The notes under the pieces were generated by a model. That model worked only from the letters and a program-made list of their open reading frames with translations, made no database searches and had not been told where the DNA came from. Source: an uncultured virus (IMG/VR IMGVR_UViG_3300025838_000029) (lineage: Duplodnaviria > Heunggongvirae > Uroviricota > Caudoviricetes). From it: DNA of 27,399 bases. The stretch is taken from positions 62,001-89,399 of IMG/VR virus record IMGVR_UViG_3300025838_000029; one strand, 5' to 3'. Numbering within the stretch: the stretch's first letter is position 1; each line of letters begins with the position of its first letter. Made by a program: the position numbers and the translations under genes. Of this stretch, positions 3,067 to 27,283 are shown in pieces.

Positions 3067-3299
3067 TTGATCCTAGAGGAATGACGTTTCAATCATGGGC
3101 TTGTCAGACAGTTCCTAGGTTTATGCAATATGGTTTCATCCCCACTCCACAAGGGGAAAAAAACTGGAAGCAATGGGCGAGTTACATTGTTGGGTTGTCT
3201 CAACTTTCTGCGATAAATCCTCCTCGACCAGAAAGTTATAAAGAGTGGAGAGATTGGGCTGTGAGATTTAACGGGTCAGTCGTAGCTCTTGGACTTTAA
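3063..3299 (+). CDS. Small Trp-rich phage virion-module protein
   Basis: GTGA overlap with the previous stop. Pattern IDPRGM...W...WKQWA...P.P..Y.EWRDWA..F is recalled from small genes following gp10-like genes in environmental podophages. Confidence 0.7.
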   Translation: MIDPRGMTFQSWACQTVPRFMQYGFIPTPQGEKNWKQWASYIVGLSQLSAINPPRPESYKEWRDWAVRFNGSVVALGL

Positions 3300-8385: not shown

Positions 8386-9513
8386 ATGGTTGGGATGTTA
8401 AACGCAATTGCTGGCAGATATCATTATGATGAAGGCGGCTCTACTGGAGATGACGACCAGCAGAGAGGTCCACTCTCCACTTATGACCCGTCTGTTCTTG
8501 GCAATATGCAGAATGCAGTCCTAGGGGGAACACCTGAATCTGCCTTGCAGAAATATAAGGATGCCCAATCAGCACAGGAAGCAGCGGCCCAAGCAAAGAA
8601 GGATCGTATCCAACAGGCAATGGATACACTGAGTGCAAATCGCTCCAATCTCCCGATGATGGCTTTTGGCGCAGGGATGATGAAGCCAACCCACACTGGC
8701 ACGTTTGGCGAAACACTTAGTAATGCAATGAGCGATACAATCCCCGCCATTGATAAGCAGCGTCAATATGAGGCGCAGCTTCAGCAGATGGGGGTTTCAG
8801 CGGCTGACGTTGATCTGGCCCAGAAGACTAAAGCGGCCCAAGATTGGACAGACCGGATGAAGCTTGGGTTGACTACGGCAGAAACAAACCAGAGATTGCA
8901 GCAAAGTGATCAGCAACATCAGGATTCGCTTAATCTTCAGAGGCAGCAGCTTCAAGGACAAAAAGGATATTATGATTATTTGAAGCAAGAAGACCCTGAC
9001 GAAGTTTCCTCATGGGTGCCATTGTATGAAAAACCGGGCGTTCAAAAGATGGACCCTGTAAGTGGCTTGCCGTTATATCAAGGCATGAGCAAAACAGAGA
9101 AGCCCGTCGGTCAGCCTCGGATTGTTAGAAGTGATGATTTGGATAGCAGCAATACAAGTTCCCGTGCAGATCCGATTATTTCGCAGTATAATTCGGCTCA
9201 GAAGGCGCTTGATGCTGCTATTAGCAAAAGGTACGTTATATTAGGATCAAATCCTAAAGCCGATACGAAAATGTTAGATGAGCAAATCGCTCGTCAAAGA
9301 GAGCTTGTTGAACAATTGAGAGTTGCGGCTACGACAAGGTTGGGAGGCTCAACCACAACGCAGCCTGTATCGCCGGATCCCTTAGCGGCAGGATTAGGGG
9401 GAAACGGAAGTGTTCCTTCTAAGAAGCCAAACATTGATCCTGGCATATATTCTCCTTCTCAAGAAGCAGCTAGGTCTGGAGCATTTCCCGCCCCACAGCC
9501 AGGAATTGATTGA
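8386..9513 (+). CDS. Putative ejection protein (Q/A-rich helical)
   Basis: Likely start is ATG 8386 after GAGGGACGGA. YDEGG motif, FGAGMMKPTHTGTFGETLSNA motif, coiled-coil segments. The stop overlaps the start of the giant gene. Confidence 0.75.
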   Translation: MVGMLNAIAGRYHYDEGGSTGDDDQQRGPLSTYDPSVLGNMQNAVLGGTPESALQKYKDAQSAQEAAAQAKKDRIQQAMDTLSANRSNLPMMAFGAGMMKPTHTGTFGETLSNAMSDTIPAIDKQRQYEAQLQQMGVSAADVDLAQKTKAAQDWTDRMKLGLTTAETNQRLQQSDQQHQDSLNLQRQQLQGQKGYYDYLKQEDPDEVSSWVPLYEKPGVQKMDPVSGLPLYQGMSKTEKPVGQPRIVRSDDLDSSNTSSRADPIISQYNSAQKALDAAISKRYVILGSNPKADTKMLDEQIARQRELVEQLRVAATTRLGGSTTTQPVSPDPLAAGLGGNGSVPSKKPNIDPGIYSPSQEAARSGAFPAPQPGID

Positions 9514-12500
9514 TGCCTGAAGATCGCGCAGATGCTCCCCTACCGGAATCAGTGGACATTTCGGAGGCTACTCCTGCACCTGTTATAAACTATGTTAATT
9601 ACACTCCCGCCCCGACTCAGGCGCCAATAAAATCATCATTGCCTCCTTTGACACCGCGTCCAACAGAAAAGCCAGCACAAGGTCTTCCGTTAGACGTTGT
9701 TAAGCAGAAAGTGGCAAAGTTAAAAGATGCCGGTTATTCGCAGGATGAGATTGCTGAATCTCTTATGAAGAATCCTTTTTTCGGCCCTCGTATATCTGAG
9801 GCGGCTGATAAAGGATGGGAATATCCAGAAATTTTTTCGAGATTTGGCCTCGATGGATATGATCCAACGGAAGGTGGTCCGTTAAAGACTCCATGGCGAT
9901 ATGTCAAAGCAGGCGTTGAATCTGCTGGGGAAATGATTGGAAACACTCTCCAGGGCGGAGCTATCGCTTCAGACCGAAGATCTTTATATGCTCCATATTA
10001 TGAGGACTACACCTCGTTTAAGAGCAAGTCTCCTGAAGAGCAGCAGCAGATTCTTAGTAAGATCGCTAATAGTGATATGGACTTGGAGGCCAGACAGAAT
10101 CTTACAAAAGAGTTCCGCAGGCTTCAAGAGGGGGCAAATCCTAGACAATTTGACATGCTGGCAAATCAGCCAGTTGAACAATTGCCTGGATACAAAGTTG
10201 GACAATGGTTCAAAGACACCACACAGGGACTGCTTAATCCTGAAGAGGAAAAGCTAACTGGCGTTAGGATTGCTAAAGCTGCTGCCCCTATCGTTCCTGC
10301 TATGGCTGCAACAGCACTTGCCGGTCCTGCTGGCCCAATGGCTCTGTTTGGCGGGTCTTCTTATCAAGAGGGTTATGAGAAGGCAAAAAAGGTTGGCGCC
10401 TCAGAAGAAGCTGCCCGTGACGCTGCTATGAAAGAAGCCGGTATTGGTGCTGCCGCTGGTGTTCTGGATGTTGGAGCCATATTAGGCCCAATAGCAAAAT
10501 ACTCTCCTGAACTCCTTAATAGGGCGCAAGCAATCCTTTATAAAGGTATTCAAAGCGGTGTCATTGGAAGTTCAGTCGGAGAAGCTCAAAAGTGGCTGAA
10601 TGCTCAGATTGAACGCACAACTTATGATCCAAATGCACAATATAAATTTGATCCGACAGAAGCTGCGATTGGATTTGCAGGGATGGCAATTCCAGGTGCA
10701 GTTCATGGGGCATTCCATGAGCAAGCCCCAAAAGAAACCGCTCCGACAGGAACAGATATTCCTCATCCATCATTGATTGCCCATGCTTATTGGAGGATTG
10801 ATGAGCTTGAGTCTATCTACAATGGAACAGAGGGAAACCCTCCAAGGGATCTAACTCCTGCTGAAGCTGCCGAATACGCATTTCTTCAGAAGAACAAAAA
10901 TAAGCCCGAAGAGCTTTCTAAAGTGATTCGTGGGACTGAGCCTTCTGAGCAACCGGAGCCGACTCAAGCGCCAACAGTTACGCCAGCCCCAACTGTTTCT
11001 AAATCTAATAAGCCTCCGAAAGCGACAAAGGCTCCTGTGCAGGCTGAGATACAAGCTCAACCTGAAGCGCAAGTTCAACCGGAAACACAGGATAAGGTTC
11101 AAGAGGCTGCTAACGCCCTTGTCGAAGAGGCAAAGCAGAATCCTACGGTTACAACACCTGAAAAAGATAGTGATATCTCCGCTCAAATTAAGGAGATGAT
11201 CAACCCAAACAACCCGAGAGATTCTGTCTACATTGCTCCAGGGAATGAGCATGAAATCCCTGTCAGTGCTTTAGATCATCCAGGTGTTGAGCTTGCTGAA
11301 AATCCCGTTAGTAAGGCTTTGTTGCTAACGACCAATATGGACAAAGCCATAGATTTTCAGAAGAACAGAGATCTCACAGAAGAAGAGAAAGCCAATTTGC
11401 TGGGTCTTTCTCAACCCAAAACTGAGGCGTTAAAAGATCCTAATGCTGTCGTCGTTCAAGGGAAGAATGAGGATGGCGCTATTGTTCATCAGGAGCTTAC
11501 CTCACAGGATAACCTGCCTAACTCTGTAGAGAACACAGCGAATAGGACTCCTGAAACTGGTCAAGTTGAAGTCGCCAGCACAACAGGAGCGCAAGCCCAT
11601 AGAGTTGGTGGTGATGATCAAGCTGTTCCTGTGGCAAAAGGAAAGGTTCCGACTCCCGATCCTGAGATACAGATTGCTGAGATCCGTAAGCAGATTGAAT
11701 CATTTGAAGAACATCGGGATCAAGCTCTTGAAGTTGGGGATACTCCTACGGCTCAGAATTGGCATAACCGTATAAGGGAGGCTAATGAACAAATAGCCGA
11801 GCTTCAAAGAGGTCAACCGTTAGAAAAAGAGCCAGCAGTTCAAGAGAGTGAACCCGCTTCTCCGCAGGCTCCGTCAACCGATATTCCTTGGGAAAATCAT
11901 TATCAACGAGCAGTTGATGTCGTTGGGAGCGAGAGTTTCCCGCTTAAAAGCAAACCACTTGCAGATAAGCTTGGGGTTGATGAGGCTATGGCAACAAGGC
12001 TTTTACAAGCCATGGCGTCCAGGGGAGCTATTAGGCAAACAAAGAATGGTGGGTTTTCACGAAATCCAGATAGAGGCCCGTTAGACTTTCTTACATTCTT
12101 GGCAGCAAAGGGAGGTCTTCGGGATGATGAAGGCCATCTTCTTGCTCAAAGTATGGACGCTCAGAGGATGGTTCCGAATTACGGACCTTTAATCCGTAAG
12201 AATGGAATGGGGATTGATCAGGCAGGGGAAGCTTTGTGGCAGGCCGGATATTTTGGCCCGACTGATTCTACGCCAAGGCCAACAGAGACAGAAGTATTAA
12301 ACAAGCTAAGTGAAGCCCTGAATGGGAGACTTCCTCTTGAAGAGCGGTATTCTGAATATGACCGAGATCGGGTGCAAAAGATTCAGGACACCAAGACCGC
12401 TAAAGATCGGGAGAAGCTTGAAAAAACAGCTAGGGCTGACATTGAGAAGCTTAATGAAGAAAAGACATATGGATTAACCCCAGAAGAAAAAGCTAGAGCG

Positions 12501-15500
12501 ATTGAGCTTTTGGTTGAGCATCCAGAGGATTTCTCTCCAGAGGAGGCTGTTGTTCACGTTCTCGATACGTCAATGATTGAGGATCTTCATGGGGCTATTG
12601 ACGTAGCAAGGGATGCACATGATGACGAGTTTTCCGATATACCGTTTGAGTGGCCAGCAGAGGTTGAACCTCCTCAACGAGGCGAAGAGGAGGGTAAAGG
12701 GACAGAAGTCTCTATCCCCACTTCAGAGGAGGAATCTGGCACGGTTGGCAAAGAACCTGGAGAAGGTGAACGCCAAGATCTCCGTGACAAAGAAATAGGT
12801 GATGTCATTGGTGCAGGGGAACGGACAGCCCCACCAATGGACAGAGAGCGTCAGCAGGCGGAAATAAGGGCGCGACAGGCAGGTAAGAAAAGAAGCGGAA
12901 AAGAACAAGAAGAACCGGGCGGGATGTTTGCCACGGAAGAAAAGGGGTTATTTTCCGAACCGAAGAAAACCGCTGATTATGGAACTCAGAATAAGGTCAT
13001 TACAGCAGACGCGGCGGAGAAAGCTAGAGAGCTTCTTCGCAAGAAATCAAATCAGATTAATGCTGGTATTGACCCTGAAACCATGTTGGCTGGTGTTACG
13101 CTTGCTGCCTATCACATAGAGGCAGGAACAAGAAAGTTCGTAGATTTTGCAAGGGCTATGGTTTCTGATGTCGGCGCATGGATTAAGCCGTACCTGAAGT
13201 CATGGTATAATGCGATCCGCGATTATCCGGGGTTGGAGGAAGCTGCCAAGGACATGACGCCGCATGAAGAAATGAATGCGGCCATGGATCAATTGGAAAG
13301 GGAAGGCTATGTATCAAGCGAATCCAGAGGTCTGGAACAAACTGGCGAGGGACCAAAAACTGAAAACGCCATGGGCAAAGAGGCTCTTCCCACTGAAGAG
13401 AGAGGAGCTTCACAAGGCGTTAGAGAAAGAAACGGAGAAGCTGAAGCAAGAGGGAATAACAAGCCCTCAAGTGAGGAGCAGCTTCCTTCAGATGGCGCCT
13501 CTTCTGTGGGAGAGAGAGGCAATAGCGAAAGAGACGCAGGAGAACCCGGCTTTGGGGCAGTGCCTGCCGAACGTGGAGGACGCCCAGGAGGCTACGATGT
13601 TAGCCAGCATGGACCGGCCATTGAGCATATCGAACCAGAAGAAGTTAATAAAACTGCTGGAGACTCCAAGACAGTAGCTCAGAGGTTTGCAGAGCAGAAG
13701 ATTGCAAACTCTCGTCCAGTTGTCTGGAACGATATTAATAACATCAGAGAGACATTACCCGCTCTATTCCCTGATCAACAAGATGATGTTCATAAGTCTG
13801 AAAAACGTCTGAGTGTTGCTCATGGGATTATGATTACCAACGGAACTGGCACCGGCAAGACATGGAGTGCTGGTGGTGTAATCGCTAGATTTGTCCGTCA
13901 GGGAAAAGAAGACATTCTTGTTGTTGCCCCCTCTCAGGACATCCTCACTGATTGGAAAGCTGCCCTTAAACATCTTGGTGTCGATGCCTCCGTTTTAGAA
14001 GGGACGCAGAAGTCTGGTAAGGGCGTAACACTTACTACCTATGCTAATCTTGGGGAAAATCGCCATATAGCGGATCGGAACTGGCATTTAGTTGTCGCAG
14101 ACGAAAGCGATAATCTTATGTCAGATCAAAAAGGGAATACCACAAAAGCTCTAAATAGCTTCAGGGCGATCACGAACCATCCCGACGCATTGTATATTAG
14201 AGCGGATATGGCTTTGAGGGATCTTAATGATCGTGTTGCAGATCTCTCAGAGCGTGTTCATAAAAATTATAACAACAAAGAACTGACCTCTCAGTGGATA
14301 AACGCCCAGAGAGAGCTTGAGCAAAAACGCAAAGAGTTGGTTGATGTATACAAAGATCAACCGCGATCAAAGGCTATATTCCTTTCGGCCACTCCATTTT
14401 CATATGACAAAACAACTGACTATGGAAATGGCTATCTGTTCGATTATCAAAAAGAAGGTAATAGAAGTGGGTATAACGTAGCTGAAGGTCGTAACCTTTT
14501 TATGGTTCAGAACTTTGGCTATCGGATGAGAAATGGGAAACTCACGGCTCCAGAAGCAAATGTTAATAGTGAGGTTCTTGAAAGAGATTTTCATGAACGC
14601 CTGAAGAAAGAAGGGGCTTTGATCGGGAGACGGTTGGAGGTTGATTCTGACTATGATCGTAAGTTCATATTAGTTAATGACGCTATTGGGAATAACATTG
14701 ACCGGCTTCTTGAGTTTTTGCGTGAATCTGATGACGGGAAATTCCGTCCGATCTATTCATTCGTTAATGATAGATTTGATTATCTTTCAAGGCAGAGGTT
14801 GCTTGAGGCAATCAAGGCCAATCACGCAATCCCTATTATTCGGGAACACCTTGCTCTTGGCAGAAAGGTTGTTGTCTTCCATGACTTCAATGAAGGTGGT
14901 GGATTCCATCCTTTTGATACGAGTGAAATTCCAAATAACCCTGTCTTTGTTACCGTCAATGGAAAGTCACATGAGTTCAATTTAAAAGACCTCGCAAACG
15001 AATTTCACGACAGGAACCCTGACGCAATAAAAATGGACTTCTCATCTATGAAAAGTCCGATTGAAACGATGACCAAGGCTTTTCCAGAAGCTCTTGTCTA
15101 CAATGGAACGGTAAGTTCCAAGAACAGGGCCACCATCAAGCAACTCTTTAATCAAGATGGTTCTGGCAGAGATGTCATTGTTATTCAATCGGCTGCTGGT
15201 AGAGCGGGAATAAGCCTGCACGACACAACGGGAGTCCATCAAAGGGTTTTAATTAATCTTGGTATGCCCACTCGGCCAACAACCTCAATTCAACAAGAGG
15301 GGCGCATTTATCGTACAGGGCAAAAGTCCGATGCAATGTTCCGGTATATGAATACTGGCACAGCATGGGAGCGGGAAGCATTTGCCAGTAGGATTGCTGA
15401 ACGGGCAAGCTCAGTTGAAAACCTTGGAATGGGGAACCAAGCACGTCAATTGAAGCAATCATTCATTGATGCCTTCAATGACACATCTGAGTACCCTCCT

Positions 15501-18500
15501 TCTCCTGAAGAGGGAAAAGGTGGGAAATCATTAGACCGTCAGACATTCAGTGATATGTCTGATTTTGAAAGAGCTAAAACTTATTACTTTGCAGAGCAGA
15601 AGAAGACGGGTCGCAGAGATCAGCGTGAGGGTGTTGACTATTTTCCAACACCAGAACCGTTGGCACAGAAGATGGTTGAATGGGCAAATGTTAAGCCCGG
15701 AGAGAAAATCCTTGAACCATCTGCTGGTCATGGCGCGATATCTCGTTATTTCCCAGAATCTACAGAACGCACTATCGTTGAGCCGTCTAAGGATCTTGCA
15801 ACCAGAGCCAGCCTAATGACTCCTGGCGCTAGAGTGGTGAACGATAAGTTTGAGAATCTGCATATCTCAAATAAGTACGATGGGATTGTTATGAATCCAC
15901 CTTTTGGCATTGGTGGAAAAATGGCAATTGAACATCTGGCTAAAGCTGCTTCCCATGTTCGGGAAGGAGGGAGGATCGTTGCCCTTCTCCCAGAAGGACC
16001 GGCAACCGATAAACGTCTTGCTGCATTTAGAGATAGTGATGCGGCAAAAGACCTTCATCTAGTTGGAACGGTATCCTTGCCGACTCATATGTTTGATCGG
16101 GCAGGAACAAACGTTAAGTCTCATGTTCTTATATTTGAAAAGCATACCGTTCCAAAACAGGCAAATCAGTATGGCTCTGATGTCGGAGATAAGATCCGAT
16201 CTGTTGTACACCATGCAGATCTGTCTAACTCTCCAAGCATTAACGATACGTTCAATCGACTTGAGCATTTGTCGATGCCTGATCGTATTGAGCCGGTGAC
16301 TAAAGAGGTTGAGGCTCCAGAAGTTCCATCAAATGGAAAGGTTGTCGTTAGTGGGCTGGCCCTGAGTTCAATAACCAATAAAGACGGGTCTATCATGGTC
16401 AGCCCGACCAAGCGTCTTGGCGCCAATGATTATGCTCGGTTTATGCGGGTTGGTGAGAGATATGGGGGGGTCGAAAATGATTATTATAGTGGATTATCAT
16501 TTAAATCTCCCGATGAGCGCAGTGCGTTTTTTAATGCTTTAGAGCGTGGTGAAACAGGGAATGAGCCTTCCGCTGAAGCTCAAAGGCAAATTGATAATGG
16601 TGGATTAGGCGTTACCTTTGATCGTAAGCAAGGGTTGCGTGAAGATGGTGCTGTTTATGAGAAACTTCATACTCAGACCAGAAAAAAGCTTTTTTATGCA
16701 AAGCCTGATAACAGAGTATCCCCTGAGACTTATCAAAAGCTAAAACAGATTGCTGGAGAAAATGGCGGAGGATTCTGGGACCGCTATGAGAAAGCATTCA
16801 GGTTTAATGACGAAGATAGCCGTCAAGCATTTATGAATAAAGTTACAGGGTCACTCCCCCTGAAGAGTGGAGACTTGCGGGTTGGCAAGAAAATGGACGC
16901 ATTATATGTCCATAAGTCTGCCATCGATACGCTTCCAAAGGATGCTCAAAATCGTATTGAAAGAGCAAAGCCTCCGTTTGATTGGGATGTTGCCAAGATA
17001 AAAAGAGACAAAGATGGCGCTCTTGAGAATGTCTCTCTTATTGAGGCAAAAGATTTTGATGAAGCTGATGAGCCGAGTGTCGGAAGATCCTTTGTCATAG
17101 ATAGAGACGGAGAGACTCGTATCATCCCAGCTTCTGGGAAAATTTATCATGGTAAATGGCAAATGGTTAAGTCCGACTATCAGGGCTTTGATGTTGATGC
17201 CAGCAAGGAAAGAACACGGCTTCTTGACAGCGTAACGTCAACTGAGGACAAGAGACGGTACGGTCAAAAAGATTACATGGATAATGTTGTCGCGCCTAAG
17301 CTGTCTAACAATGCAAAATTAGCAGATCGGTTCTTAACTGATCGGGACAAAGTTCCTGAGACAGTAACAACTCTCGACTACAACCCAAAAGATGGGATTG
17401 TTCAAAAAATTAGCTCGGCTAACACGGTGCGTCGTCAAGCTGCACAAGTTTTCGGCAATGATAAGTTTTATCCTAGATCCGAAACGCCGTCTTTTAATCT
17501 TGATCTTGGTGGCGGAAAATTCCCTGAAGGAACAGAACGACTTGCTGAAAAGGGAATAACCAATCTCATCCATGATAAATATAATCAGAGTGAGCAGCAT
17601 AACAGGGATGTTGTTGAGAAGGTAAAGGCTGAGAAGGGAACCGGAATCGTTTCTGCCACTAATGTTCTAAATGTCATCAAGGAACCAATGGCAAGGCTTG
17701 ACCTTATTCGCCAAGCTGCAAAAGGTTTGAAGGATGATGGGGTCGCTTATTTCCAAATCCATGAAGGTGATAAGAGTGGAGAAGGGAAAGAGACAAGTGA
17801 TGGGTGGCAAGCCAATAAGCTGACATCAACCTATCTTCCTATGGTCAGGCAGTATTTTGGCAAGGTTAAGCAGGTTGGCAGGCCAGATGCTCCTAAAGGC
17901 AATCTAATTATTGCCGCAGAGCCTAAGAGAATACCGGGACAAACTATTTGGGAAGGCACTGAGCCTTGGGATACCAAAGGCAATACCGTGCCTATGTTCT
18001 CGGGGGACGTGCGTAATGAGCATTACTTCCCTGAAGATGGTGAGGGCCTGATTGCTCATAATGAATCTTTAAGCCCAGGAGATGCTGAGTTAGTTCATAA
18101 CGATGCACGGGCATATGTTTTGGATCGAGGAAACGAAACCGGCCATGAGCATGGGATTGCTGTTCATTCTGATGGGCGAGTTGAACATTTTACGGAAGGA
18201 AAAGAGGATACTCTTTCTATAAAGAAAGTTGCTCCAGAGCTATATCGTGAGATGGAGCAAGCTGGTAACAACATTGACGTTCATCATAATCACCCAGAGG
18301 GAACGAGCGCCCCACTATCTGAAAGTGATTTGCAGCTATCGACTCTTGATGGTGTCAATCGTGTAATTGCCCATGCTGGAGACGGTGTATTTTCCGTTGC
18401 AAAATGTTCGGACGCCTTAAACCAATTCGGCAATGCTGGAGATCGGCAAAAGCTTATCCGAAATTCATACAGAGATGCTCTTCGGGCCATACAAGAAAGG

Positions 18501-21278
18501 ATATTCACTGGTATCCGAGATGGAGAGATTTCTGAAGAGGGGATCCATAACATTGGTGATTATGAGCATATTATAAACATGGCCCTGGATCGGGTTGGGT
18601 TGATTGATTATGTTTCAAACCATCAGATTGAAGACACTCCTCTCAATCGGGAACTTGCTCAGAAGGCAATTCTTGCTGCATGGGATAGCGCAAATGAAAA
18701 TGGATTTAGAGTAAGGAGTAGCCAGGATGCTGTCAGGCTTGATGCTAAATTATTCCATGATGGAACCTTTGCCGAAGTTGCGAAAAATTTTGGTGAACCT
18801 TCAGGAACTCTCCAAGGAGGATCCAGAGGCGAAGGAAGAATTGGAGAAACTGCGAGAGACTATCCGCTGGAGAGAGAAAATAAATCTTCTTCCCAAGAAG
18901 GAGCAGCGGAATCGTTAGGTCTTAAATCTGGCGACCTAAGAACAGAAGATGAGAAACGTGGGGCTGTAACAATCTCTCATGTCATCGATAAGTGGAGCGC
19001 GGAAGGACCGGGGAAGGGTCCACTTCGGCGCCCTGTTCAAGTCCTTGAGGGAGCGGCTGATTATGTTAAGGAAACACTTCCTATAACGAGTCAAATTTGG
19101 AAATGGGCAAGTCGTCGCATTTTCCCTGGTTCAGCAGATGCTTTCGCTAAATCAGCAGCAAGAACAATCCGTCATATGTATGGGCAGTCCTATCTCTGGG
19201 AGATCCAGATGGGACATAAGCTCGATGAAATATCCAATCGCCTCGATGCTCTTCCTGTCGATGAATGGAACAAGATCGGGATTGCTTGGGCCAAAGGGGA
19301 CTATGAATCAATTCCGGAAGAATACCGCGAGGCGTTTAAACAAGCAGATGACTTTACAAAGAAAGCCACAGAGAGGCTTCAGTCTCTTGGGGTTCTGAAA
19401 GATGCAATGGGGCATTATGTAGGAAGAATTTGGAAGAAGCGTGGAGAGAATGCCCCGTCAACTGATGAGGAAGGAAAGAAGATATTCAATCAGTTGATGA
19501 GCAAGTTCCCCCTTCTTGGAAGGAAATCCTTCCTGAAGAAAAGATATTTTGATGAGTATGAGGATGCTATCGCGGCAGGAATGGAGCCTGTCTACAACCC
19601 TCTGAAGACACAGATGGTTAAGATTGCTGAGATGAACAGATATTATACAGGGACAACTCTTGTCCGTGCGGCGAAAGAAAGCGGTATAGCAAAGTTCTTT
19701 GCAAGAGGATCTCAGGTACCGGACGGTATGTTAGAGTTGGCTGGTCCTGAATTTCAACGCCCATTTATGAAGGTCATTGAGGGAGAAAAGACTACGTCTG
19801 TTCTTCCTGGCGCTTGGTATGCCCCAGAGGGATTTGCTCGGGTCTACAACAATCATGTTTCAAGAGGGTTCTCTGGAACACCAGAAGGTGAACCTGTGCA
19901 GATGCTTAGGAGCATTGGTGGGTTTATGAACCAAGCACAGTTGGGTTTGTCTATGTTCCACCCTGTCTTTACAACGTTTGACGCCATGAGTAGCACCATG
20001 GCTATTGCCGTTGATCAGGCTGTTCGTAAAGATTTTGGTCTTGCTGCTCAGACATTTGCAAAATCTATGAACCCATTCGGTGTTTATAAGGACGGGGATA
20101 ATTTCCTAAAGGCAGTCCTTGATCCTGACAAGGCAACTCCAGATCAGAAGTTACTGATTAATGCTCTTGGAGAGGGTGGCGGAAGAGTTTGGATGGAGAG
20201 AGTTCTGCGCCCGACTGATGAAGGGGCAATGGTTGCTAAAAGGATTTCGGATATACCCGCAACATTAGGAACGGCATGGAAGCTTGCGTCTCATAAGTAT
20301 GACGGAAGTGGGATGACTAATCAAATGAGGCGAGTGTTTAATGTCGCCGGTCGGGTTATGGAGACGATGTCGTCTCCGATTATGAACCATTTGGTTCCTC
20401 GTCAGAAGTTAGGTGTGTTCTCTCGTATGGCGGCTGATTGGCTTGCTGCAAATCCAAATGCAGGAAGTTTAGAGCGTATCACTAAAATGCAAGATATCTG
20501 GGAAAGCGTAGATAACCGTTTGGGTCAAATGGTTTATGACAACCTTTTCTGGGACAAGACTCTTAAAGAAGCAAGCTTCCTTGCTGTCCGGTCTGTTGGT
20601 TGGAACATGGGGTCGATCCGAGAGATTGGTGGAGGACTGACTGATTTCACAGGAGCCATAAAGGATAAGATTGCTGGTAGAGAGGCCGAGTGGACAAACA
20701 GAATGTCATATCTCATCGCTATGACAGCTAGTACGGCCATCACCGGGGCAATAATGAATCGTCTCTTTACGGGAGAAGGTCCAAAAGAATTAAAGGATTA
20801 TTTCTTCCCTCGTACTGGAGAAACGAGGTTGGTTAAACTTCCAGGTCGCAATCACCCTGTGATGGAAGTTCCTGAGAGGTTGTCGATCCCCTCTTACTTC
20901 AAAGACATTATGGCTTGGACAACCCAACCGGGTCAGACTGCGAAGAATAAGATTCATCCCTTATTTAGTGCAATGGCTCAAGCTTGGGATAACCATGATT
21001 ACTACGGTGATATCATCTGGAATAGAGATGACCCTGCTTATAAACAGGCATTGGATATGGCAAAGTTTGCTGGCTCAACATTGATTCCGTTCTCAATCAC
21101 CGGAACAATGAAAATGTGGAAAGAGCGTCCAGGTCCAGTTGCCACTATGGGTATGCTTGGGTTCCAGCCTGCACCTGGATATATAGCCGCCCCAGAAGCA
21201 AGACAAGCATGGGATGATTACATCCATGCTCAAGAGGTTAGAAAGAAAGCAGCGCGTGAGCTTAAAAATAGTAACTAG
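9513..21278 (+). CDS. Giant DarB-like polyvalent virion protein: SF2 (Strawberry-notch-like) helicase, N6-adenine DNA MTase, second MTase module, JAB/MPN domain, helical C-terminal region
   Basis: 11.8-kb ORF; AGGA SD before ATG 9513. Helicase motifs: GTGTGKT (13842), VADESD (D at 14100), LSATP, AGRAGISLHD, QQEGRIYRTGQ (15291). MTase motifs: DYFPTP, EPSAGHG (15714), NPPF (15894). Second MTase: NLDLGGGKF (17496), NVLNVI (17661). JAB: E...HNHP...SESD (18147-18329). Confidence 0.92.
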   Translation: MPEDRADAPLPESVDISEATPAPVINYVNYTPAPTQAPIKSSLPPLTPRPTEKPAQGLPLDVVKQKVAKLKDAGYSQDEIAESLMKNPFFGPRISEAADKGWEYPEIFSRFGLDGYDPTEGGPLKTPWRYVKAGVESAGEMIGNTLQGGAIASDRRSLYAPYYEDYTSFKSKSPEEQQQILSKIANSDMDLEARQNLTKEFRRLQEGANPRQFDMLANQPVEQLPGYKVGQWFKDTTQGLLNPEEEKLTGVRIAKAAAPIVPAMAATALAGPAGPMALFGGSSYQEGYEKAKKVGASEEAARDAAMKEAGIGAAAGVLDVGAILGPIAKYSPELLNRAQAILYKGIQSGVIGSSVGEAQKWLNAQIERTTYDPNAQYKFDPTEAAIGFAGMAIPGAVHGAFHEQAPKETAPTGTDIPHPSLIAHAYWRIDELESIYNGTEGNPPRDLTPAEAAEYAFLQKNKNKPEELSKVIRGTEPSEQPEPTQAPTVTPAPTVSKSNKPPKATKAPVQAEIQAQPEAQVQPETQDKVQEAANALVEEAKQNPTVTTPEKDSDISAQIKEMINPNNPRDSVYIAPGNEHEIPVSALDHPGVELAENPVSKALLLTTNMDKAIDFQKNRDLTEEEKANLLGLSQPKTEALKDPNAVVVQGKNEDGAIVHQELTSQDNLPNSVENTANRTPETGQVEVASTTGAQAHRVGGDDQAVPVAKGKVPTPDPEIQIAEIRKQIESFEEHRDQALEVGDTPTAQNWHNRIREANEQIAELQRGQPLEKEPAVQESEPASPQAPSTDIPWENHYQRAVDVVGSESFPLKSKPLADKLGVDEAMATRLLQAMASRGAIRQTKNGGFSRNPDRGPLDFLTFLAAKGGLRDDEGHLLAQSMDAQRMVPNYGPLIRKNGMGIDQAGEALWQAGYFGPTDSTPRPTETEVLNKLSEALNGRLPLEERYSEYDRDRVQKIQDTKTAKDREKLEKTARADIEKLNEEKTYGLTPEEKARAIELLVEHPEDFSPEEAVVHVLDTSMIEDLHGAIDVARDAHDDEFSDIPFEWPAEVEPPQRGEEEGKGTEVSIPTSEEESGTVGKEPGEGERQDLRDKEIGDVIGAGERTAPPMDRERQQAEIRARQAGKKRSGKEQEEPGGMFATEEKGLFSEPKKTADYGTQNKVITADAAEKARELLRKKSNQINAGIDPETMLAGVTLAAYHIEAGTRKFVDFARAMVSDVGAWIKPYLKSWYNAIRDYPGLEEAAKDMTPHEEMNAAMDQLEREGYVSSESRGLEQTGEGPKTENAMGKEALPTEERGASQGVRERNGEAEARGNNKPSSEEQLPSDGASSVGERGNSERDAGEPGFGAVPAERGGRPGGYDVSQHGPAIEHIEPEEVNKTAGDSKTVAQRFAEQKIANSRPVVWNDINNIRETLPALFPDQQDDVHKSEKRLSVAHGIMITNGTGTGKTWSAGGVIARFVRQGKEDILVVAPSQDILTDWKAALKHLGVDASVLEGTQKSGKGVTLTTYANLGENRHIADRNWHLVVADESDNLMSDQKGNTTKALNSFRAITNHPDALYIRADMALRDLNDRVADLSERVHKNYNNKELTSQWINAQRELEQKRKELVDVYKDQPRSKAIFLSATPFSYDKTTDYGNGYLFDYQKEGNRSGYNVAEGRNLFMVQNFGYRMRNGKLTAPEANVNSEVLERDFHERLKKEGALIGRRLEVDSDYDRKFILVNDAIGNNIDRLLEFLRESDDGKFRPIYSFVNDRFDYLSRQRLLEAIKANHAIPIIREHLALGRKVVVFHDFNEGGGFHPFDTSEIPNNPVFVTVNGKSHEFNLKDLANEFHDRNPDAIKMDFSSMKSPIETMTKAFPEALVYNGTVSSKNRATIKQLFNQDGSGRDVIVIQSAAGRAGISLHDTTGVHQRVLINLGMPTRPTTSIQQEGRIYRTGQKSDAMFRYMNTGTAWEREAFASRIAERASSVENLGMGNQARQLKQSFIDAFNDTSEYPPSPEEGKGGKSLDRQTFSDMSDFERAKTYYFAEQKKTGRRDQREGVDYFPTPEPLAQKMVEWANVKPGEKILEPSAGHGAISRYFPESTERTIVEPSKDLATRASLMTPGARVVNDKFENLHISNKYDGIVMNPPFGIGGKMAIEHLAKAASHVREGGRIVALLPEGPATDKRLAAFRDSDAAKDLHLVGTVSLPTHMFDRAGTNVKSHVLIFEKHTVPKQANQYGSDVGDKIRSVVHHADLSNSPSINDTFNRLEHLSMPDRIEPVTKEVEAPEVPSNGKVVVSGLALSSITNKDGSIMVSPTKRLGANDYARFMRVGERYGGVENDYYSGLSFKSPDERSAFFNALERGETGNEPSAEAQRQIDNGGLGVTFDRKQGLREDGAVYEKLHTQTRKKLFYAKPDNRVSPETYQKLKQIAGENGGGFWDRYEKAFRFNDEDSRQAFMNKVTGSLPLKSGDLRVGKKMDALYVHKSAIDTLPKDAQNRIERAKPPFDWDVAKIKRDKDGALENVSLIEAKDFDEADEPSVGRSFVIDRDGETRIIPASGKIYHGKWQMVKSDYQGFDVDASKERTRLLDSVTSTEDKRRYGQKDYMDNVVAPKLSNNAKLADRFLTDRDKVPETVTTLDYNPKDGIVQKISSANTVRRQAAQVFGNDKFYPRSETPSFNLDLGGGKFPEGTERLAEKGITNLIHDKYNQSEQHNRDVVEKVKAEKGTGIVSATNVLNVIKEPMARLDLIRQAAKGLKDDGVAYFQIHEGDKSGEGKETSDGWQANKLTSTYLPMVRQYFGKVKQVGRPDAPKGNLIIAAEPKRIPGQTIWEGTEPWDTKGNTVPMFSGDVRNEHYFPEDGEGLIAHNESLSPGDAELVHNDARAYVLDRGNETGHEHGIAVHSDGRVEHFTEGKEDTLSIKKVAPELYREMEQAGNNIDVHHNHPEGTSAPLSESDLQLSTLDGVNRVIAHAGDGVFSVAKCSDALNQFGNAGDRQKLIRNSYRDALRAIQERIFTGIRDGEISEEGIHNIGDYEHIINMALDRVGLIDYVSNHQIEDTPLNRELAQKAILAAWDSANENGFRVRSSQDAVRLDAKLFHDGTFAEVAKNFGEPSGTLQGGSRGEGRIGETARDYPLERENKSSSQEGAAESLGLKSGDLRTEDEKRGAVTISHVIDKWSAEGPGKGPLRRPVQVLEGAADYVKETLPITSQIWKWASRRIFPGSADAFAKSAARTIRHMYGQSYLWEIQMGHKLDEISNRLDALPVDEWNKIGIAWAKGDYESIPEEYREAFKQADDFTKKATERLQSLGVLKDAMGHYVGRIWKKRGENAPSTDEEGKKIFNQLMSKFPLLGRKSFLKKRYFDEYEDAIAAGMEPVYNPLKTQMVKIAEMNRYYTGTTLVRAAKESGIAKFFARGSQVPDGMLELAGPEFQRPFMKVIEGEKTTSVLPGAWYAPEGFARVYNNHVSRGFSGTPEGEPVQMLRSIGGFMNQAQLGLSMFHPVFTTFDAMSSTMAIAVDQAVRKDFGLAAQTFAKSMNPFGVYKDGDNFLKAVLDPDKATPDQKLLINALGEGGGRVWMERVLRPTDEGAMVAKRISDIPATLGTAWKLASHKYDGSGMTNQMRRVFNVAGRVMETMSSPIMNHLVPRQKLGVFSRMAADWLAANPNAGSLERITKMQDIWESVDNRLGQMVYDNLFWDKTLKEASFLAVRSVGWNMGSIREIGGGLTDFTGAIKDKIAGREAEWTNRMSYLIAMTASTAITGAIMNRLFTGEGPKELKDYFFPRTGETRLVKLPGRNHPVMEVPERLSIPSYFKDIMAWTTQPGQTAKNKIHPLFSAMAQAWDNHDYYGDIIWNRDDPAYKQALDMAKFAGSTLIPFSITGTMKMWKERPGPVATMGMLGFQPAPGYIAAPEARQAWDDYIHAQEVRKKAARELKNSN
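12619..12798 (+). CDS. Candidate overprinted small basic protein (+1 frame inside the giant gene)
   Basis: AAGGGA precedes tandem ATGs at 12619 and 12622. Amphipathic-looking LSGQQRLNLLNEAKRR...LSPLQRRNLARLAKNLEKVNAK. Occupies an acidic disordered linker. Could be a shadow ORF. Confidence 0.3.
   Translation: MMTSFPIYRLSGQQRLNLLNEAKRRVKGQKSLSPLQRRNLARLAKNLEKVNAKISVTKK
13309..13677 (+). CDS. Candidate overprinted helical protein, 122 aa (+1 frame inside the giant gene, just upstream of the helicase)
   Basis: Purine-rich GGAAAGGGAAGG before ATG 13309. Natural protein-like composition (MYQANPEVWNKLARDQKLKTPWAKRLFPL...APLLWEREAIAKE). The host frame over the same span is G/E/R-rich and low in complexity. 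Confidence 0.6.
   Translation: MYQANPEVWNKLARDQKLKTPWAKRLFPLKREELHKALEKETEKLKQEGITSPQVRSSFLQMAPLLWEREAIAKETQENPALGQCLPNVEDAQEATMLASMDRPLSISNQKKLIKLLETPRQ
18727..18918 (+). CDS. Candidate overprinted 63-aa helical-hairpin protein (+1 frame, directly after the JAB domain)
   Basis: TAAGGAG at 18712-18718, 8 nt before the ATG. Sequence EPLPKLRKILVNLQELSKEDPEAKEELEKLRETIRWREK. The host frame becomes a G/E/R/S linker here. Confidence 0.55.
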   Translation: MLSGLMLNYSMMEPLPKLRKILVNLQELSKEDPEAKEELEKLRETIRWREKINLLPKKEQRNR

Positions 21279-23567: not shown

Positions 23568-23915
23568 ATGAGAAAATTATTTATCGTCCCTCTGCTTCTC
23601 TTAGCTGGGTGCAACAGTGACGGAACCCTGAAGCCGGGTGTCCTGACATTCGTCAACAACGTCGTCACTGCTTCTTGTCAGATTGATCAGGCAATTCCTG
23701 GTCTTGTGTCACAGGGGGCGCTTATTACAGCTTTGGTTGCTCCTGAATATGCCCCAGAGGTTGCTTTGGCAACGAAGGTTGATCAGTTGGCGCATCCTGC
23801 TGTTGTCGCTGCGTGTAATGCGGCAGCGGCGGCTCAAGCGAATGCTGCTGCAAATCATCCTGTGGCTGTAGCTGTAACCCCGATCTCAACAACGGTAACG
23901 GTTCCTGCGCGATGA
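23568..23915 (+). CDS. Lipoprotein in the lysis module (possible spanin-like or outer-membrane lysis factor)
   Basis: MRKLFIVPLLLLAGC is a signal peptide II with an LAGC lipobox. Ala/Val-rich body with two further Cys. ATGA coupling to the lipase gene. Confidence 0.8.
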   Translation: MRKLFIVPLLLLAGCNSDGTLKPGVLTFVNNVVTASCQIDQAIPGLVSQGALITALVAPEYAPEVALATKVDQLAHPAVVAACNAAAAAQANAAANHPVAVAVTPISTTVTVPAR

Positions 23916-24637
23916 CGACACCAGATTTTCAGAGGCTTCACCAGCTTGCTCAGTTGGCAAGCCTCGTCTATCAGACAGATGCAAATGTCCTGGCTAAGGG
24001 CGCCGAGAACTTAGGGTTTGAGTTTGTCGGTCTGGTTGGGAATAAAGAATGCCAAGCAATGGTTCTCACTGAGTTTGGTGGGCAACTTATTGTAATCCGG
24101 GGAACTCAAGTGGAAGAGAATTTCTCTCCATGGGAGTTATGGGATGACGCCAACCCAAATCATACTGAGGTTGGTGGTGGTGCAAAGGTTCGGTCAGGGG
24201 CGTTTGATCCTCTGAAGGATCTATGGAAAGACATCTGGGATCTTGTAGATCCGAGTGAACCGCTTACCATCACAGGACACTCTCTTGGTGGTCAGAGGGC
24301 GGCGATATCAGCCTTCCTCGTTCCTAGGGGGGTTAAGTTATCGGTTGTTGCATTTGCCCCTCCGAAGGGAGGAAATAAGGAGTTCTGGACAGCGGCTTAT
24401 TCTGGTCGGACTCTTCCTGTTATCGTTGGTAGAAGCAATGACTTTGCCCTTAGTTGGGCCTCTCTTGATACCGTGACCTGTCAACCATGCCCGGTTCTTC
24501 ACCTTAAAGAAGACGGTGGGTGGGAGATGTTATCCTCCTGGCCGTTCCTCACTGCTTCGATTCCGGATCACGATGTTGATAAGTATGTTTCGGATCTTGA
24601 GTCCCTCCTCCCTAAGAAGGAAGCTCCCAAAGAATGA
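23912..24637 (+). CDS. Class 3 lipase (alpha/beta hydrolase)
   Basis: Motifs IVIRGT, V.SG.F, nucleophile elbow ITGHSLGG and FAPPKGGN. Candidate catalytic Asp (RSND) and His (DHDVDKY). Confidence 0.9.
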   Translation: MTTPDFQRLHQLAQLASLVYQTDANVLAKGAENLGFEFVGLVGNKECQAMVLTEFGGQLIVIRGTQVEENFSPWELWDDANPNHTEVGGGAKVRSGAFDPLKDLWKDIWDLVDPSEPLTITGHSLGGQRAAISAFLVPRGVKLSVVAFAPPKGGNKEFWTAAYSGRTLPVIVGRSNDFALSWASLDTVTCQPCPVLHLKEDGGWEMLSSWPFLTASIPDHDVDKYVSDLESLLPKKEAPKE

Positions 24638-26473: not shown

Positions 26474-27283
26474 ATGATGTATCCCCAGGGGTTGGGCGCC
26501 ACCATCACTTTGCAGTTCTGTTCATTCAACAGCTTCTGGGGGCGCGTTATCCCCTGGTTCACCCAGGCGCCTGATGGTGTTGGGCATGTGGACATCGTCA
26601 CTGACGATGGCGATCTGCTGGGCGCGCAGCATGAGGCTATGGGCGGTTGCAAGCCGGGAGTCTGGATACGTCCAGCGTCCTACGTCAAAGAGAGCGGTGG
26701 GAAACGGATTATCAGAGCCACCTTCGGCGTAACGTCAAAGCAAAAGCAGCGTTTCTGGGACTTTGCCAGCATGCAGATCGGCAAACCTTACGACGTAACG
26801 TCGATCAAAGGGTTTATGGCCGGTCGCAACTGGCGTGACGATAAGGCTTGGTTCTGCTCGGAATTGGCCGCAGCGGCGCTTGAAGCTGCTGTTGTCTTCA
26901 AAGAGTCGTTGGCATCGCCCGTCCTCAAGCGTCTCATGCTGGATGATTACTTGGTGCGGAAATCCGTACTTGTCCTGACCAGCAAAAGCTATGTCGTAAG
27001 CCCAATTAACTACACGCGACAGCTTTACCAGTTGTTCATCGGTGGTAAGAGGGACGCCATTCATTTCAATCATTTTTCACCTCCCGGCGCAGCGGCCAGC
27101 ACATTCTCCCACGTCAAATCCGGGCCGTATGCGCGGTCTATCATTTCGCACATCACTTCACACATGGCTGGCGTCATCTCCACCGGCACCCACCGCCAAC
27201 CAGCGGCGGCGAGGCGTTGCAGTATCGCTTCGGATGCGGCTTCTGTTCCTGTAAGCGCAGGCCACTCGGTCGATATCTCATAA
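26474..27283 (+). CDS. Permuted papain-like NlpC/P60 (YiiX/YebB-like) enzyme; the region beyond ~26920 is probably read-through
   Basis: His-before-Cys order: GHVDIV...GV..RP...QIGKPYD...WFCSELAAAALE. The last ~120 codons are antisense to two minus-strand ORFs. Confidence 0.8.
   Translation: MMYPQGLGATITLQFCSFNSFWGRVIPWFTQAPDGVGHVDIVTDDGDLLGAQHEAMGGCKPGVWIRPASYVKESGGKRIIRATFGVTSKQKQRFWDFASMQIGKPYDVTSIKGFMAGRNWRDDKAWFCSELAAAALEAAVVFKESLASPVLKRLMLDDYLVRKSVLVLTSKSYVVSPINYTRQLYQLFIGGKRDAIHFNHFSPPGAAASTFSHVKSGPYARSIISHITSHMAGVISTGTHRQPAAARRCSIASDAASVPVSAGHSVDIS
26735..27073 (-). CDS. Hypothetical protein, probably genuine only for the first ~50 codons (truncated or fused)
   Basis: ATGA coupling with the stop of 27070-27309. 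The N-terminus looks protein-like; the remainder is antisense to the NlpC/P60 catalytic region. Confidence 0.4.
   Translation of the reverse strand: MIEMNGVPLTTDEQLVKLSRVVNWAYDIAFAGQDKYGFPHQVIIQHETLEDGRCQRLFEDNSSFKRRCGQFRAEPSLIVTPVATGHKPFDRRYVVRFADLHAGKVPETLLLL

What the first reader, a model, noticed from the sequence alone, without database searches (positions are those of the whole stretch)
16860..18941. SGD[LV]R delimiter repeated three times, bracketing two enzyme cassettes
Seen: LKSGDLR (16860), MFSGDVR (17994) and LKSGDLR (18921), in frame and at domain junctions: [helicase-MTase] / [second MTase module] / [JAB + nested ORF] / [C-terminal region]. The DNA is synonymously diverged (Ser is AGT, TCG, TCT; Arg is CGG, CGT, AGA), so the peptide is what is conserved. 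Inference: polyprotein cleavage sites releasing separate effectors, or a docking motif, that also mark swappable cassettes.
Basis: partly seen in the sequence, partly recalled or inferred. Interest (0 to 1): 0.75.

Follow-up and report, generated by a model that had tools for sequence, protein, structure and literature searches.

The report
Private seam peptide in giant phage protein
A 3,922-residue multi-enzyme protein of an uncultured short-tailed phage carries the same short peptide at three flexible joints around two enzyme modules; the repeat is real and looks selected, but relatives lack it and no cutting is shown.

Summary
SGD[LV]R occurs three times in frame (aa 2453, 2831, 3140 of the 9510..21278 ORF). 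These are the only three SGD tripeptides in the protein. Sites 1 and 3 are more alike than reported: SLPLKSGDLR against SLGLKSGDLR, 9 of 10 residues. No shuffle of 200 reached 9. Eight of the nine shared residues use different codons.

All three sites lie at module borders. Sites 1 and 2 flank a confidently folded unit (new domain plus class I methyltransferase) in low-confidence linkers. Site 3 ends a low-complexity linker.

The 35 non-identical relatives sharing the C-terminal module have no such motif. None of the four other contexts of the JAB-like cassette has it, nor do the ~150 proteins sharing the methyltransferase module at their seams. The nearest relative keeps only SLGL..D.R at site 3 and nothing at site 2. 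No protease gene was found in the phage.

At site 2, what homologues conserve is a module-end tag, [ILV][RKQ][FY]S (here VPMFS).

Best reading: a lineage-private linear motif under peptide-level selection, reader unknown, cleavage unproven. This scan has noted analogous junction motifs in giant proteins of other phages (unverified notes).

The parts
9510..21278 (+). Giant ORF, 3,922 aa (P0001): polyvalent, DarB-like, probably a virion-packed and ejected protein
   Evidence: Pfam and PHROG domains. An identical copy lies in a second IMG/VR record (L002).
13770..15494 (+). SF2/SNF2-like helicase (aa 1421-1995)
   Evidence: Pfam ResIII 7.1e-10 and Helicase_C_4 7e-10. phrog_10691 and phrog_5143 are colinear over aa 1113-2275.
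15597..16160 (+). First methyltransferase, N6-adenine type (aa ~2030-2217)
   Evidence: PHROG DNA methyltransferase families, E 1e-21 to 1e-27. Weak Pfam UPF0020/MTS hits and an NPPF motif.
16401..16838 (+). Tandem pair of a small domain of about 45 residues (aa ~2298-2342 and ~2398-2443). It ends 4 residues before site 1.
   Evidence: Local self-alignment score 61, against a maximum of 48 in 300 shuffles.
16851..16880 (+). Site 1: SLPLKSGDLR (aa 2448-2457)
   Evidence: pLDDT below 50 for model residues 18-28. It lies directly before the conserved VGKxMG..YVHK start of the next domain.
16881..17384 (+). 'VGK' domain of unknown function (aa 2458-2625): VGKxMG..YVHK...DFD..EP.VG...IYHHKW
   Evidence: 40 homologues, alignment A3, pLDDT 88-98, no Pfam family.
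17391..17954 (+). Second methyltransferase core, class I SAM-dependent fold (aa 2628-2815), motif DLGGG
   Evidence: 2,214 hits at E<=0.001. Foldseek gave 32 PDB methyltransferase matches at E<=0.001. Weak Pfam Methyltransf_23.
17985..18014 (+). Site 2: TVPMFSGDVR (aa 2826-2835). VPMFS is the local form of a module-end tag; GDVR follows it.
   Evidence: pLDDT 27-46. Homologues have [ILV][RKQ][FY]S at this place in 28 of 113 tails.
18075..18635 (+). JAB-like cassette core (aa 2856-3042) with HNHPEGTSAPLSESD
   Evidence: Motif. Homologues are L009, P0154, P0155 and P0156. No Pfam hit. hhalign to a RadC-bearing protein was not significant.
18777..18911 (+). Low-complexity linker, poorly conserved (aa ~3090-3134)
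   Evidence: Alignment with L009. pLDDT 22-25 in a low-confidence model.
18912..18941 (+). Site 3: SLGLKSGDLR (aa 3135-3144)
   Evidence: L009 has SLGLHEDDIR here. The D and R are invariant in P0001, L009 and L025.
18942..21278 (+). C-terminal module (aa 3145-3922), shared by 36 IMG/VR loci; the conserved core begins at ~aa 3200
   Evidence: No Pfam or PHROG family.

Best explanation
The gene encodes a giant polyvalent protein: an N-terminal region, a DarB-like helicase and methyltransferase, a new 'VGK' domain with a second methyltransferase, a JAB-like cassette, and a conserved C-terminal module. A podophage-like virus most likely packs it into its particle and delivers it with the DNA.

SGD[LV]R (SL[P/G]LKSGDLR at two of the three places) is a short linear motif private to this lineage. 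It sits in flexible linkers at the three seams around the two innermost cargo cassettes. I read it as a peptide kept by selection because one common partner recognises it, as a cutting or docking signal. It is not a family-wide delimiter.

Shown:
- the repeat and its statistical excess;
- codon divergence with peptide identity;
- its position in linkers at module borders;
- its absence from relatives.

Inferred:
- selection on the peptide;
- a common reader;
- any cleavage. I put cleavage at about half of this reading's probability.

For: - Three in-frame copies, which are the only SGD tripeptides in 3,922 aa.
- Sites 1 and 3 are identical at 9 of 10 residues; 0 of 200 shuffles reached that.
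- 15 of 30 bases are identical, and 8 of the 9 shared residues use different codons, including Ser AGT against TCT. DNA ancestry is therefore erased or absent while the peptide is kept.
- In the VGK-domain family the positions equivalent to SGDL are variable (SKKYG, SKTYG, RHKD and others in 40 homologues). The fold does not explain why site 1 matches site 3.
- Sites 1 and 2 lie in segments with pLDDT below 50 on either side of a unit with pLDDT 88-98.
- Site 3 is an island (SLGL..D.R) conserved with L009 after an unconserved linker.
- The gene sits among virion, tail and lysis genes: SU10 adaptor, GP4 fibre gp80, capsid, portal and lysozyme.
- Iyer et al. 2017 (PMC5512222; passages read) propose processing of polyvalent proteins. 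In the passages I read, and by term search ('linker' 0 occurrences; 'cleavage site' only in a reference title), they name no site motif.
Against: - The motif is absent from all 35 non-identical relatives' giant ORFs.
- Among 183 related or module-sharing proteins, only single occurrences appear, all in other contexts.
- No other long-range 9-of-10 repeat occurs at seams in the 27 relatives' giant proteins examined.
- The nearest relative, L009 (50% identical over aa 2856-3912), has SLGLHEDDIR at site 3 and no counterpart of site 2. It shows no private repeat of its own around its JAB-like cassette.
- Only 3 of at least 8 module seams in P0001 carry the motif.
- Elsewhere in the phage's 84 ORFs it occurs once, in a TPR/OGT-like glycosyltransferase that is not a virion protein.
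- No protease family was found by Pfam or PHROGs in the ORFs scanned. P0001 has no HExxH.
- Part of site 1 (K-S) matches the VGK-family consensus, and SGD occurs at that position in 2 of 40 homologues.
- The pattern was defined post hoc.
Confidence: 0.42

Rival explanations
1. Footprint of module shuffling. The peptide is the N-terminal leader of the VGK domain. Sites 2 and 3 are leftover leaders of VGK modules that were replaced (by the JAB-like cassette) or deleted (before the C-module). They have no function of their own.
For: - Site 1 is a bona fide leader directly before VGKxMG.
- The VGK domain and the methyltransferase core occur in both orders. In the 9 proteins of 26 in alignment A3 with the methyltransferase-then-VGK order, a linker and a leader (for example ..AGVPMPSAKYGGVGK) follow the methyltransferase where P0001 has ..GNTVPMFSGDVR.
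- Stand-alone homologues begin M..L.KLGLKRH..VGK, which resembles the ESLGLK of site 3.
- SGD occurs at the leader position in P0024 and P0084.
Against: - A position-weight matrix built from 34 leaders did not pick out sites 2 or 3 in P0001 (ranks 395 and above 1,400; even the true leader ranked 253). The matrix was crude.
- Neutral relics in flexible linkers should not stay 9 of 10 identical while synonymous positions are randomised.
- L009 has the site-3 island but no VGK domain within the 22 kb fetched.
Confidence: 0.27
2. Coincidence on top of local constraints. K-S comes from the VGK-family consensus, SLGL..D.R from the C-module's N-terminal cap, and FS from the methyltransferase module-end tag. 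The shared SGD[LV]R core would then be chance, noticed post hoc.
For: - Each site overlaps a separately conserved element.
- No relative repeats the motif.
- A fourth partial look-alike (SFPLKSKPLA, aa 809, 6 of 10) is simply the start of a winged-helix domain.
Against: - 0 of 200 shuffles gave a 9-of-10 pair.
- None of 2,000 shuffles gave two or more SGD[LV]R.
- The residues G-D-L-R at site 1 are not constrained in the VGK family.
Confidence: 0.15
3. Self-processing by the embedded JAB-like metallopeptidase. It would cut in cis after Ser-Gly (..S-G|D-[LV]-R) and release the VGK-methyltransferase unit and itself. This would resemble JAMM enzymes, which cut after a C-terminal Gly (that property is recalled, not from a call).
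For: - An HxHx(7-8)SxxD motif with an upstream invariant Glu is conserved in 5 homologues.
- It is the only peptidase-like catalytic motif in the protein.
- The cassette lies between sites 2 and 3.
Against: - There is no Pfam JAB or RadC hit for it or for its four homologues.
- hhalign to a RadC-bearing protein gave E 0.05, probability 1%.
- The model is unusable, with pLDDT 39.5.
- The four other contexts of this cassette have no Ser-Gly-Asp seam.
- Iyer et al. 2017 argue that RadC-type JAB domains act on nucleic acids (passage read).
Confidence: 0.07

Closest known systems
Phage-type polyvalent proteins (Iyer, Burroughs, Anand, de Souza, Aravind 2017, PMC5512222), including P1 DarB
   Same: - Many unrelated enzyme domains lie in one polypeptide of a phage, among late/virion genes.
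- It has an SF2 helicase plus an adenine-type methyltransferase, a RadC/JAB-like unit, and swappable modules.
- The paper proposes proteolytic release of domains.
   Different: - No zincin MPTase is present in P0001, although relative L009 has HEVIH.
- The helicase precedes the methyltransferase. The paper describes the methyltransferase as fused at its C terminus to the helicase (passage).
- The C-terminal module and the VGK domain have no Pfam or PHROG family.
- The paper defines no seam motif in the passages I read.
Head-maturation protease site codes of large phages (T4 gp21 L/I-x-E; phiKZ gp175 S/A/G-x-E). These specificities are recalled, not from a call.
   Same: A short peptide recurs at the borders of packaged proteins.
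   Different: - No maturation protease was found in this genome.
- The motif is not present in capsid, scaffold or other virion proteins.
- The residue at the would-be P1 position is not Glu.
Module-end tag [ILV][RKQ][FY]S ('DIRYS'-type) seen here in polyvalent proteins
   Same: It marks module ends, and site 2's VPMFS occupies exactly its position after the methyltransferase core.
   Different: - It is widely conserved: 28 of 113 tails against 0.76 expected, and D[ILV]R[FY]S 19 observed against 1.1 expected.
- SGD[LV]R, by contrast, is private to this phage.
- A full-text search for 'DIRYS' returned 12 papers, none relevant among the 10 titles listed.
Junction-motif notes from this scan on other phages (e1-5742935, e1-5358951, e1-6096207, e1-5838061)
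   Same: Short peptides recur at the seams of giant phage proteins and are interpreted as cut signals. None has cleavage shown.
   Different: Those notes report that relatives keep their own version at the same joints. Here the nearest relative does not. The notes are unverified AI notes.

Membership tests
Phage polyvalent protein (Iyer et al. 2017) | Two or more unrelated effector or enzyme domains in one polypeptide | tested here: met
   Helicase, N6-type methyltransferase, class I methyltransferase and JAB-like motif.
Phage polyvalent protein (Iyer et al. 2017) | Encoded with phage late, packaging or virion genes | tested here: met
   Virion structural protein, lysozyme, SU10 adaptor, GP4 gp80 fibre, capsid, portal and terminase lie on the same 89.4-kb virus record.
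Phage polyvalent protein (Iyer et al. 2017) | Delivered into the host with the DNA (virion-packed) | not testable with these tools
   Inferred only from gene position and the DarB-like PHROG hit.
Phage polyvalent protein (Iyer et al. 2017) | Zincin-like MPTase for processing (a common theme, not obligatory) | tested here: not met
   No HExxH in P0001 and no Pfam peptidase hit. L009 has HEVIH.
JAB/JAMM (RadC-like) domain | E...HxHx7Sx2D metal site | tested here: inconclusive
   HNHPEGTSAPLSESD has an 8-residue spacer, while L009 has 7. H, H, S, D and an upstream E are invariant in 3-5 homologues.
JAB/JAMM (RadC-like) domain | Profile match to PF04002, PF14464 or related families | tested here: not met
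   No hit at E<=1 for P0001's cassette or for L009, P0154, P0155 and P0156. hhalign against P0066's RadC region gave E 0.05, probability 1%. Atlas leads scored only 0.77-0.79.
JAB/JAMM (RadC-like) domain | MPN/cytidine-deaminase-like fold | tested here: inconclusive
   The AlphaFold model has mean pLDDT 39.5 and was not searched.
Polyprotein cleavage-site code | Same or co-varying motif at the same seams in relatives | tested here: not met
   0 of 35 relatives. L009 has 6 of 10 at site 3 and none at site 2. No private seam repeat in 27 relatives.
Polyprotein cleavage-site code | A cognate protease encoded by the element | tested here: not met
   No protease family among the ORFs scanned with Pfam; PHROGs was run on 36 of them plus the giant protein. 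The only leads are a weak Peptidase_C92 hit (E 0.0023, below cut-off) and the JAB-like motif.
Polyprotein cleavage-site code | Observed cleavage products | not testable with these tools
   The virus is uncultured and no proteomics was available.
Class I SAM-dependent methyltransferase (second MTase) | Rossmann-like MTase fold with glycine-rich motif I | tested here: met
   The model has pLDDT about 90 over the core. Foldseek gave 32 PDB methyltransferases at E<=0.001. D236, G238, G239 and G240 are invariant in A3.

The most novel reading that the evidence does not exclude
Giant polyvalent proteins may be punctuated by seam tags of two layers. One is a widespread module-end tag, [ILV][RKQ][FY]S (DIRYS type, here VPMFS). 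The other is lineage-private tags such as SL.LKSGDLR. Both would be the signals by which a protease or a hand-off partner frees or positions the individual enzymes after the protein is packed or injected. The private tag would co-evolve with its reader inside one phage lineage, which would explain why copies within one protein resemble each other more than orthologous sites do between phages.
Probability: 0.2. Interest if true: 0.7.

Novelty: new variant of a known kind. Interest (0 to 1): 0.4.

Why it matters
Polyvalent proteins carry a phage's first-strike enzymes. How a protein of 3,000-6,000 residues is packed, threaded through a tail and turned into working enzymes is unknown. Processing has been proposed, but no site has been defined.

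It would also help to delimit unknown modules in metagenomic giants.

Here the evidence supports a real, apparently selected peptide. It does not support a conserved code, so the value is that of a testable lead in one lineage. The more general lead is the conserved [ILV][RKQ][FY]S module-end tag seen in passing.

Tried and rejected
- Nucleotide and protein searches of the INPHARED phage collection with the giant gene and with its last 1,092 aa found nothing.
- Two metagenome scans for closer relatives of the site-3 segment found nothing.
- Viral-contig scans with the JAB-like cassette, alone and as a 2-sequence alignment, returned only the identical record and L009.
- A search for stand-alone homologues of 158-529 aa found none.
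- Sequence and profile searches of the PDB for the JAB-like cassette gave only chance hits at E>0.8. The profile of A6 was bloated by two long members.
- The AlphaFold model of aa 2815-3215 from a 2-sequence alignment had mean pLDDT 39.5. I did not use it for a fold search or for claims about site 3.
- A leader position-weight matrix test of the 'relic leader' idea was uninformative, because the anchor was misaligned among homologues.
- I considered FRFN at aa 2430 as a second module-end tag. I rejected it because it belongs to a duplicated small domain.
- I considered SGD[LV]R as a variant of D[ILV]R[FY]S because P0066 and P0082 read SGDVRYS. I rejected this as a general explanation: none of the three sites is followed by [FY]S, and at site 2 the tag position is taken by VPMFS upstream.
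- I considered a prohead-protease code. No such protease was found and the motif is absent from other virion proteins.
Full report
**Setting**

The window is the last 27.4 kb of an 89.4-kb IMG/VR virus record. The region of interest lies inside one 3,922-aa ORF, 9510..21278 on the + strand. An identical copy of this ORF is present in a second IMG/VR record (L002).

Pfam and PHROGs place the following on the protein:
- an SF2/SNF2-like helicase at aa 1421-1995;
- an N6-type DNA methyltransferase at about aa 2030-2217;
- a 'DarB-like antirestriction' match at aa 901-1355;
- a winged-helix region near aa 810.

The neighbours are virion, tail and lysis genes. Elsewhere the genome has an SU10-type adaptor, a GP4 gp80-type fibre protein, a Mu gpT-like capsid, a portal and terminases. 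This is a podophage-like virus, and the ORF fits the phage-type polyvalent proteins of Iyer et al. 2017 (PMC5512222; I read passages only).

**The observation**

LKSGDLR, MFSGDVR and LKSGDLR are at the stated coordinates and in frame, with the stated codons.
- SGD[LV]R occurs three times. Of 2,000 shuffles, 14 had one match and none had two or more.
- These are the only three SGD tripeptides in the protein.
- Sites 1 and 3 share 9 of 10 residues (SLPLKSGDLR, SLGLKSGDLR). This is the best 10-mer pair in the protein, and 0 of 200 shuffles reached 9.
- The two 30-nt stretches share 15 of 30 bases. Eight of the nine identical residues use different codons, and third positions agree in 2 of 10 codons.

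So the peptide, not the DNA, is what is alike. The pattern was defined after seeing it, which tempers the shuffle figures.

**Are these module borders?**

Yes, with corrections.

A search of 1.8 billion representative proteins with aa 2400-3200 gave 2,214 hits at E<=0.001. Nearly all matched a methyltransferase core at aa 2628-2815.

Forty hits also cover an N-terminal domain that begins VGKxMG..YVHK (I call it the VGK domain). Their match to the query starts between query positions 28 and 66, and in about half of them at 56-59, right at the end of site 1.

An AlphaFold model from a 26-sequence alignment (mean pLDDT 76.4) folds aa 2458-2814 confidently. It leaves aa 2447-2457 (site 1) and aa 2815-2860 (which contains site 2) below pLDDT 50. 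Foldseek confirms a class I SAM-dependent methyltransferase.

Site 3 ends a low-complexity linker. That linker is not conserved with the nearest relative, while conservation resumes exactly at SLGL.

- About 230 residues, including a duplicated small domain, separate the first methyltransferase from site 1.
- No meaningful nested ORF exists; the mechanical ORFs there are all 88 aa or shorter.

**The comparative test**

They do not.
- The C-terminal module is shared by 36 IMG/VR loci, whose giant ORFs as read range from 629 to 3,994 aa; five run off the locus edge or come from truncated contigs, so those lengths are minima.
- Apart from the identical record, none of the 35 has SGD[LVIM][RK].
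- None of their loci encodes a VGK domain or this methyltransferase.
- The conserved core of the C-module starts near aa 3200. Only L009 and L025 share the segment that holds site 3.
- L009 is 50% identical over aa 2856-3912. It reads SLGLHEDDIR at site 3 and has no counterpart of site 2. Its JAB-like cassette follows a zincin-type HEVIH region instead.
- D and R of site 3 are invariant in P0001, L009 and L025.
- Three further homologues of the JAB-like cassette (P0154, P0155, P0156) have no such motif at either border.
- No long-range seam repeat comparable to P0001's exists in the 27 relatives' giant proteins I screened.
- Among 183 non-identical related or module-sharing proteins, SGD[LVIM][RK] occurs outside P0001 only as single instances in four proteins.
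- In the phage's own 84 ORFs the motif occurs once more, in a TPR/OGT-like glycosyltransferase.

**What each site overlaps**

Site 1 lies between a weakly conserved 'G.P.[KR]' leader and VGK. The equivalent positions in 40 homologues are variable (SKKYG, SKTYG, RHKD and others). Two homologues (P0024, P0084) have SGD there.

Site 2 overlaps a conserved tail of the methyltransferase module, W[DE]...G..[ILV][RKQ][FY]S.
- The tag is found 11-26 residues after the core in 28 of 113 homologues with enough tail. Random windows of the same proteins gave 0.76 on average and at most 4. The homologues are related, so this reflects conservation rather than independent events.
- P0001 has VPMFS at that place, and GDVR follows it.
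- The same kind of tag, D[ILV]R[FY]S, is 19-fold enriched in the set (19 observed against 1.1).
- In P0066 it sits exactly between Pfam ART-PolyVal (ends at aa 105) and PBECR5 (starts at aa 116).

So the delimiter that homologues actually conserve at site 2 is this tag, not SGDVR.

**Is there a reader?**

- No protease family was detected in the phage ORFs I scanned with Pfam (all but about six short ones of the 84 called); PHROGs was run only on the window's ORFs and on 18 ORFs of the 25-62 kb region.
- P0001 has no HExxH.
- The only peptidase-like element is HNHPEGTSAPLSESD, in a cassette with invariant E, H, H, S and D in its homologues.
- That cassette has no Pfam JAB or RadC match.
- hhalign aligned the motif to the RadC region of P0066 without significance.
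- The structure model was unusable.
- A complex prediction of the cassette with a seam peptide was not available.

**Interpretation**

Nine-of-ten identity with randomised synonymous positions, in flexible linkers, at positions the VGK family leaves free, is hard to explain without selection on the peptide in this lineage. That argues for a short linear motif read by one partner, as a cut or docking signal.

Against a conserved function stand four points:
- the lack of the motif in every relative;
- its presence at only three of at least eight seams;
- its absence from other virion proteins;
- the absence of a protease.

I give the functional private-motif reading 0.42, with cleavage about half of that. 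The rivals are a relic of VGK-leader peptides left by module shuffling (0.27), coincidence on top of local constraints (0.15), and specific self-cleavage by the JAB-like unit (0.07).

**Literature and earlier notes**

- Iyer et al. 2017 propose processing of polyvalent proteins by embedded peptidases. In the passages found, 'linker' occurs 0 times and 'cleavage site' only in a reference title.
- A full-text search for 'DIRYS' gave 12 papers; none of the 10 titles listed concerns this motif.
- A search for 'polyvalent protein' with 'cleavage site' and 'phage' listed nothing on seam motifs by title (I saw titles and abstract starts only).
- This scan holds several unverified notes of analogous junction motifs in giant proteins of other phages. 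They did not change my reading. Unlike those notes, here the nearest relative does not keep a version of the motif at the same joints.

Noticed in passing
P0002-P0153 (module-sharing proteins); window 17985-18002 for the local form VPMFS: A module-end tag [ILV][RKQ][FY]S (DIRYS, VRFS, VRYS) closes the methyltransferase module in 28 of 113 homologues, against 0.76 expected. D[ILV]R[FY]S occurs 19 times against 1.1 expected, after at least two other upstream contexts (..IPLSERF.....QIKSA..N.G.F..). In P0066 it lies exactly between ART-PolyVal and PBECR5. Stand-alone VGK-methyltransferase proteins lack the tail. The passages of Iyer 2017 that I read do not describe it, and none of the 10 listed titles of the 12 'DIRYS' papers concerns it.
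   Followed up: partly
L009 aa 11-33; L030/L034 aa 5-39; L027 aa 6-33; L003 aa 30-58; L008 aa 3-40; L019/L022 aa 13-59: Many relatives' giant proteins begin with a tandem pair of a short peptide 13-30 residues apart (for example LSFDDLIPQQ / ISFDDLIPQQ, PLTPVDYDPF / KLVPVDYDPF). The peptide differs between phages. This may be an N-terminal packaging or portal-targeting signal. P0001 shows no obvious counterpart.
   Followed up: no
window 16881-17954 and proteins P0005, P0007, P0009, P0013, P0015, P0017, P0018, P0029, P0060: The unannotated VGK domain (VGKxMG..YVHK...IYHHKW..GFDV) and the class I methyltransferase core occur in both orders, as stand-alone proteins of 330-500 aa and inside giants. 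They look like an obligate pair with a circularly permuted architecture. The VGK domain has no Pfam family.
   Followed up: partly
window 16401-16838: A tandem duplication of a small domain of about 45 residues (..Y.......GE..GG......F.F...D.R.AF.N) lies just upstream of site 1. The self-alignment score is 61, against a maximum of 48 in 300 shuffles.
   Followed up: partly
window 13770-16160: The helicase precedes the methyltransferase. Iyer et al. 2017 describe the methyltransferase of the DarB-type dyad as fused at its C terminus to the helicase (passage). PHROG families 10691 and 5143 match colinearly, so this order exists in other phages.
   Followed up: no
L009 aa ~895-910 (locus L009, about nt 8690-8740): The nearest relative has a zincin-type HEVIH motif directly upstream of its JAB-like cassette, where P0001 has the VGK-methyltransferase unit. 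Pfam did not name it.
   Followed up: no
G000 outside the window: 54589-57810, 57829-59604, 28655-31661, 33433-33894, 973-1728: The phage has unusual accessory genes. These include a 1,073-aa RCC1-repeat protein (Pfam reports 21 RCC1 stretches) and a 591-aa protein with a sulfotransferase domain, both next to tail genes. There are also two TPR glycosyltransferases (one GT41/OGT-like), a Cpn10-like gene near the capsid gene and a pentapeptide-repeat protein.
   Followed up: no
window 23912-24637 and 26474-27283: Downstream of the giant gene and the lysozyme lie a class 3 lipase-like protein (Pfam 7.7e-08) and a protein with a weak, sub-threshold Peptidase_C92 / enoyl-CoA hydratase-like PHROG match.
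   Followed up: no
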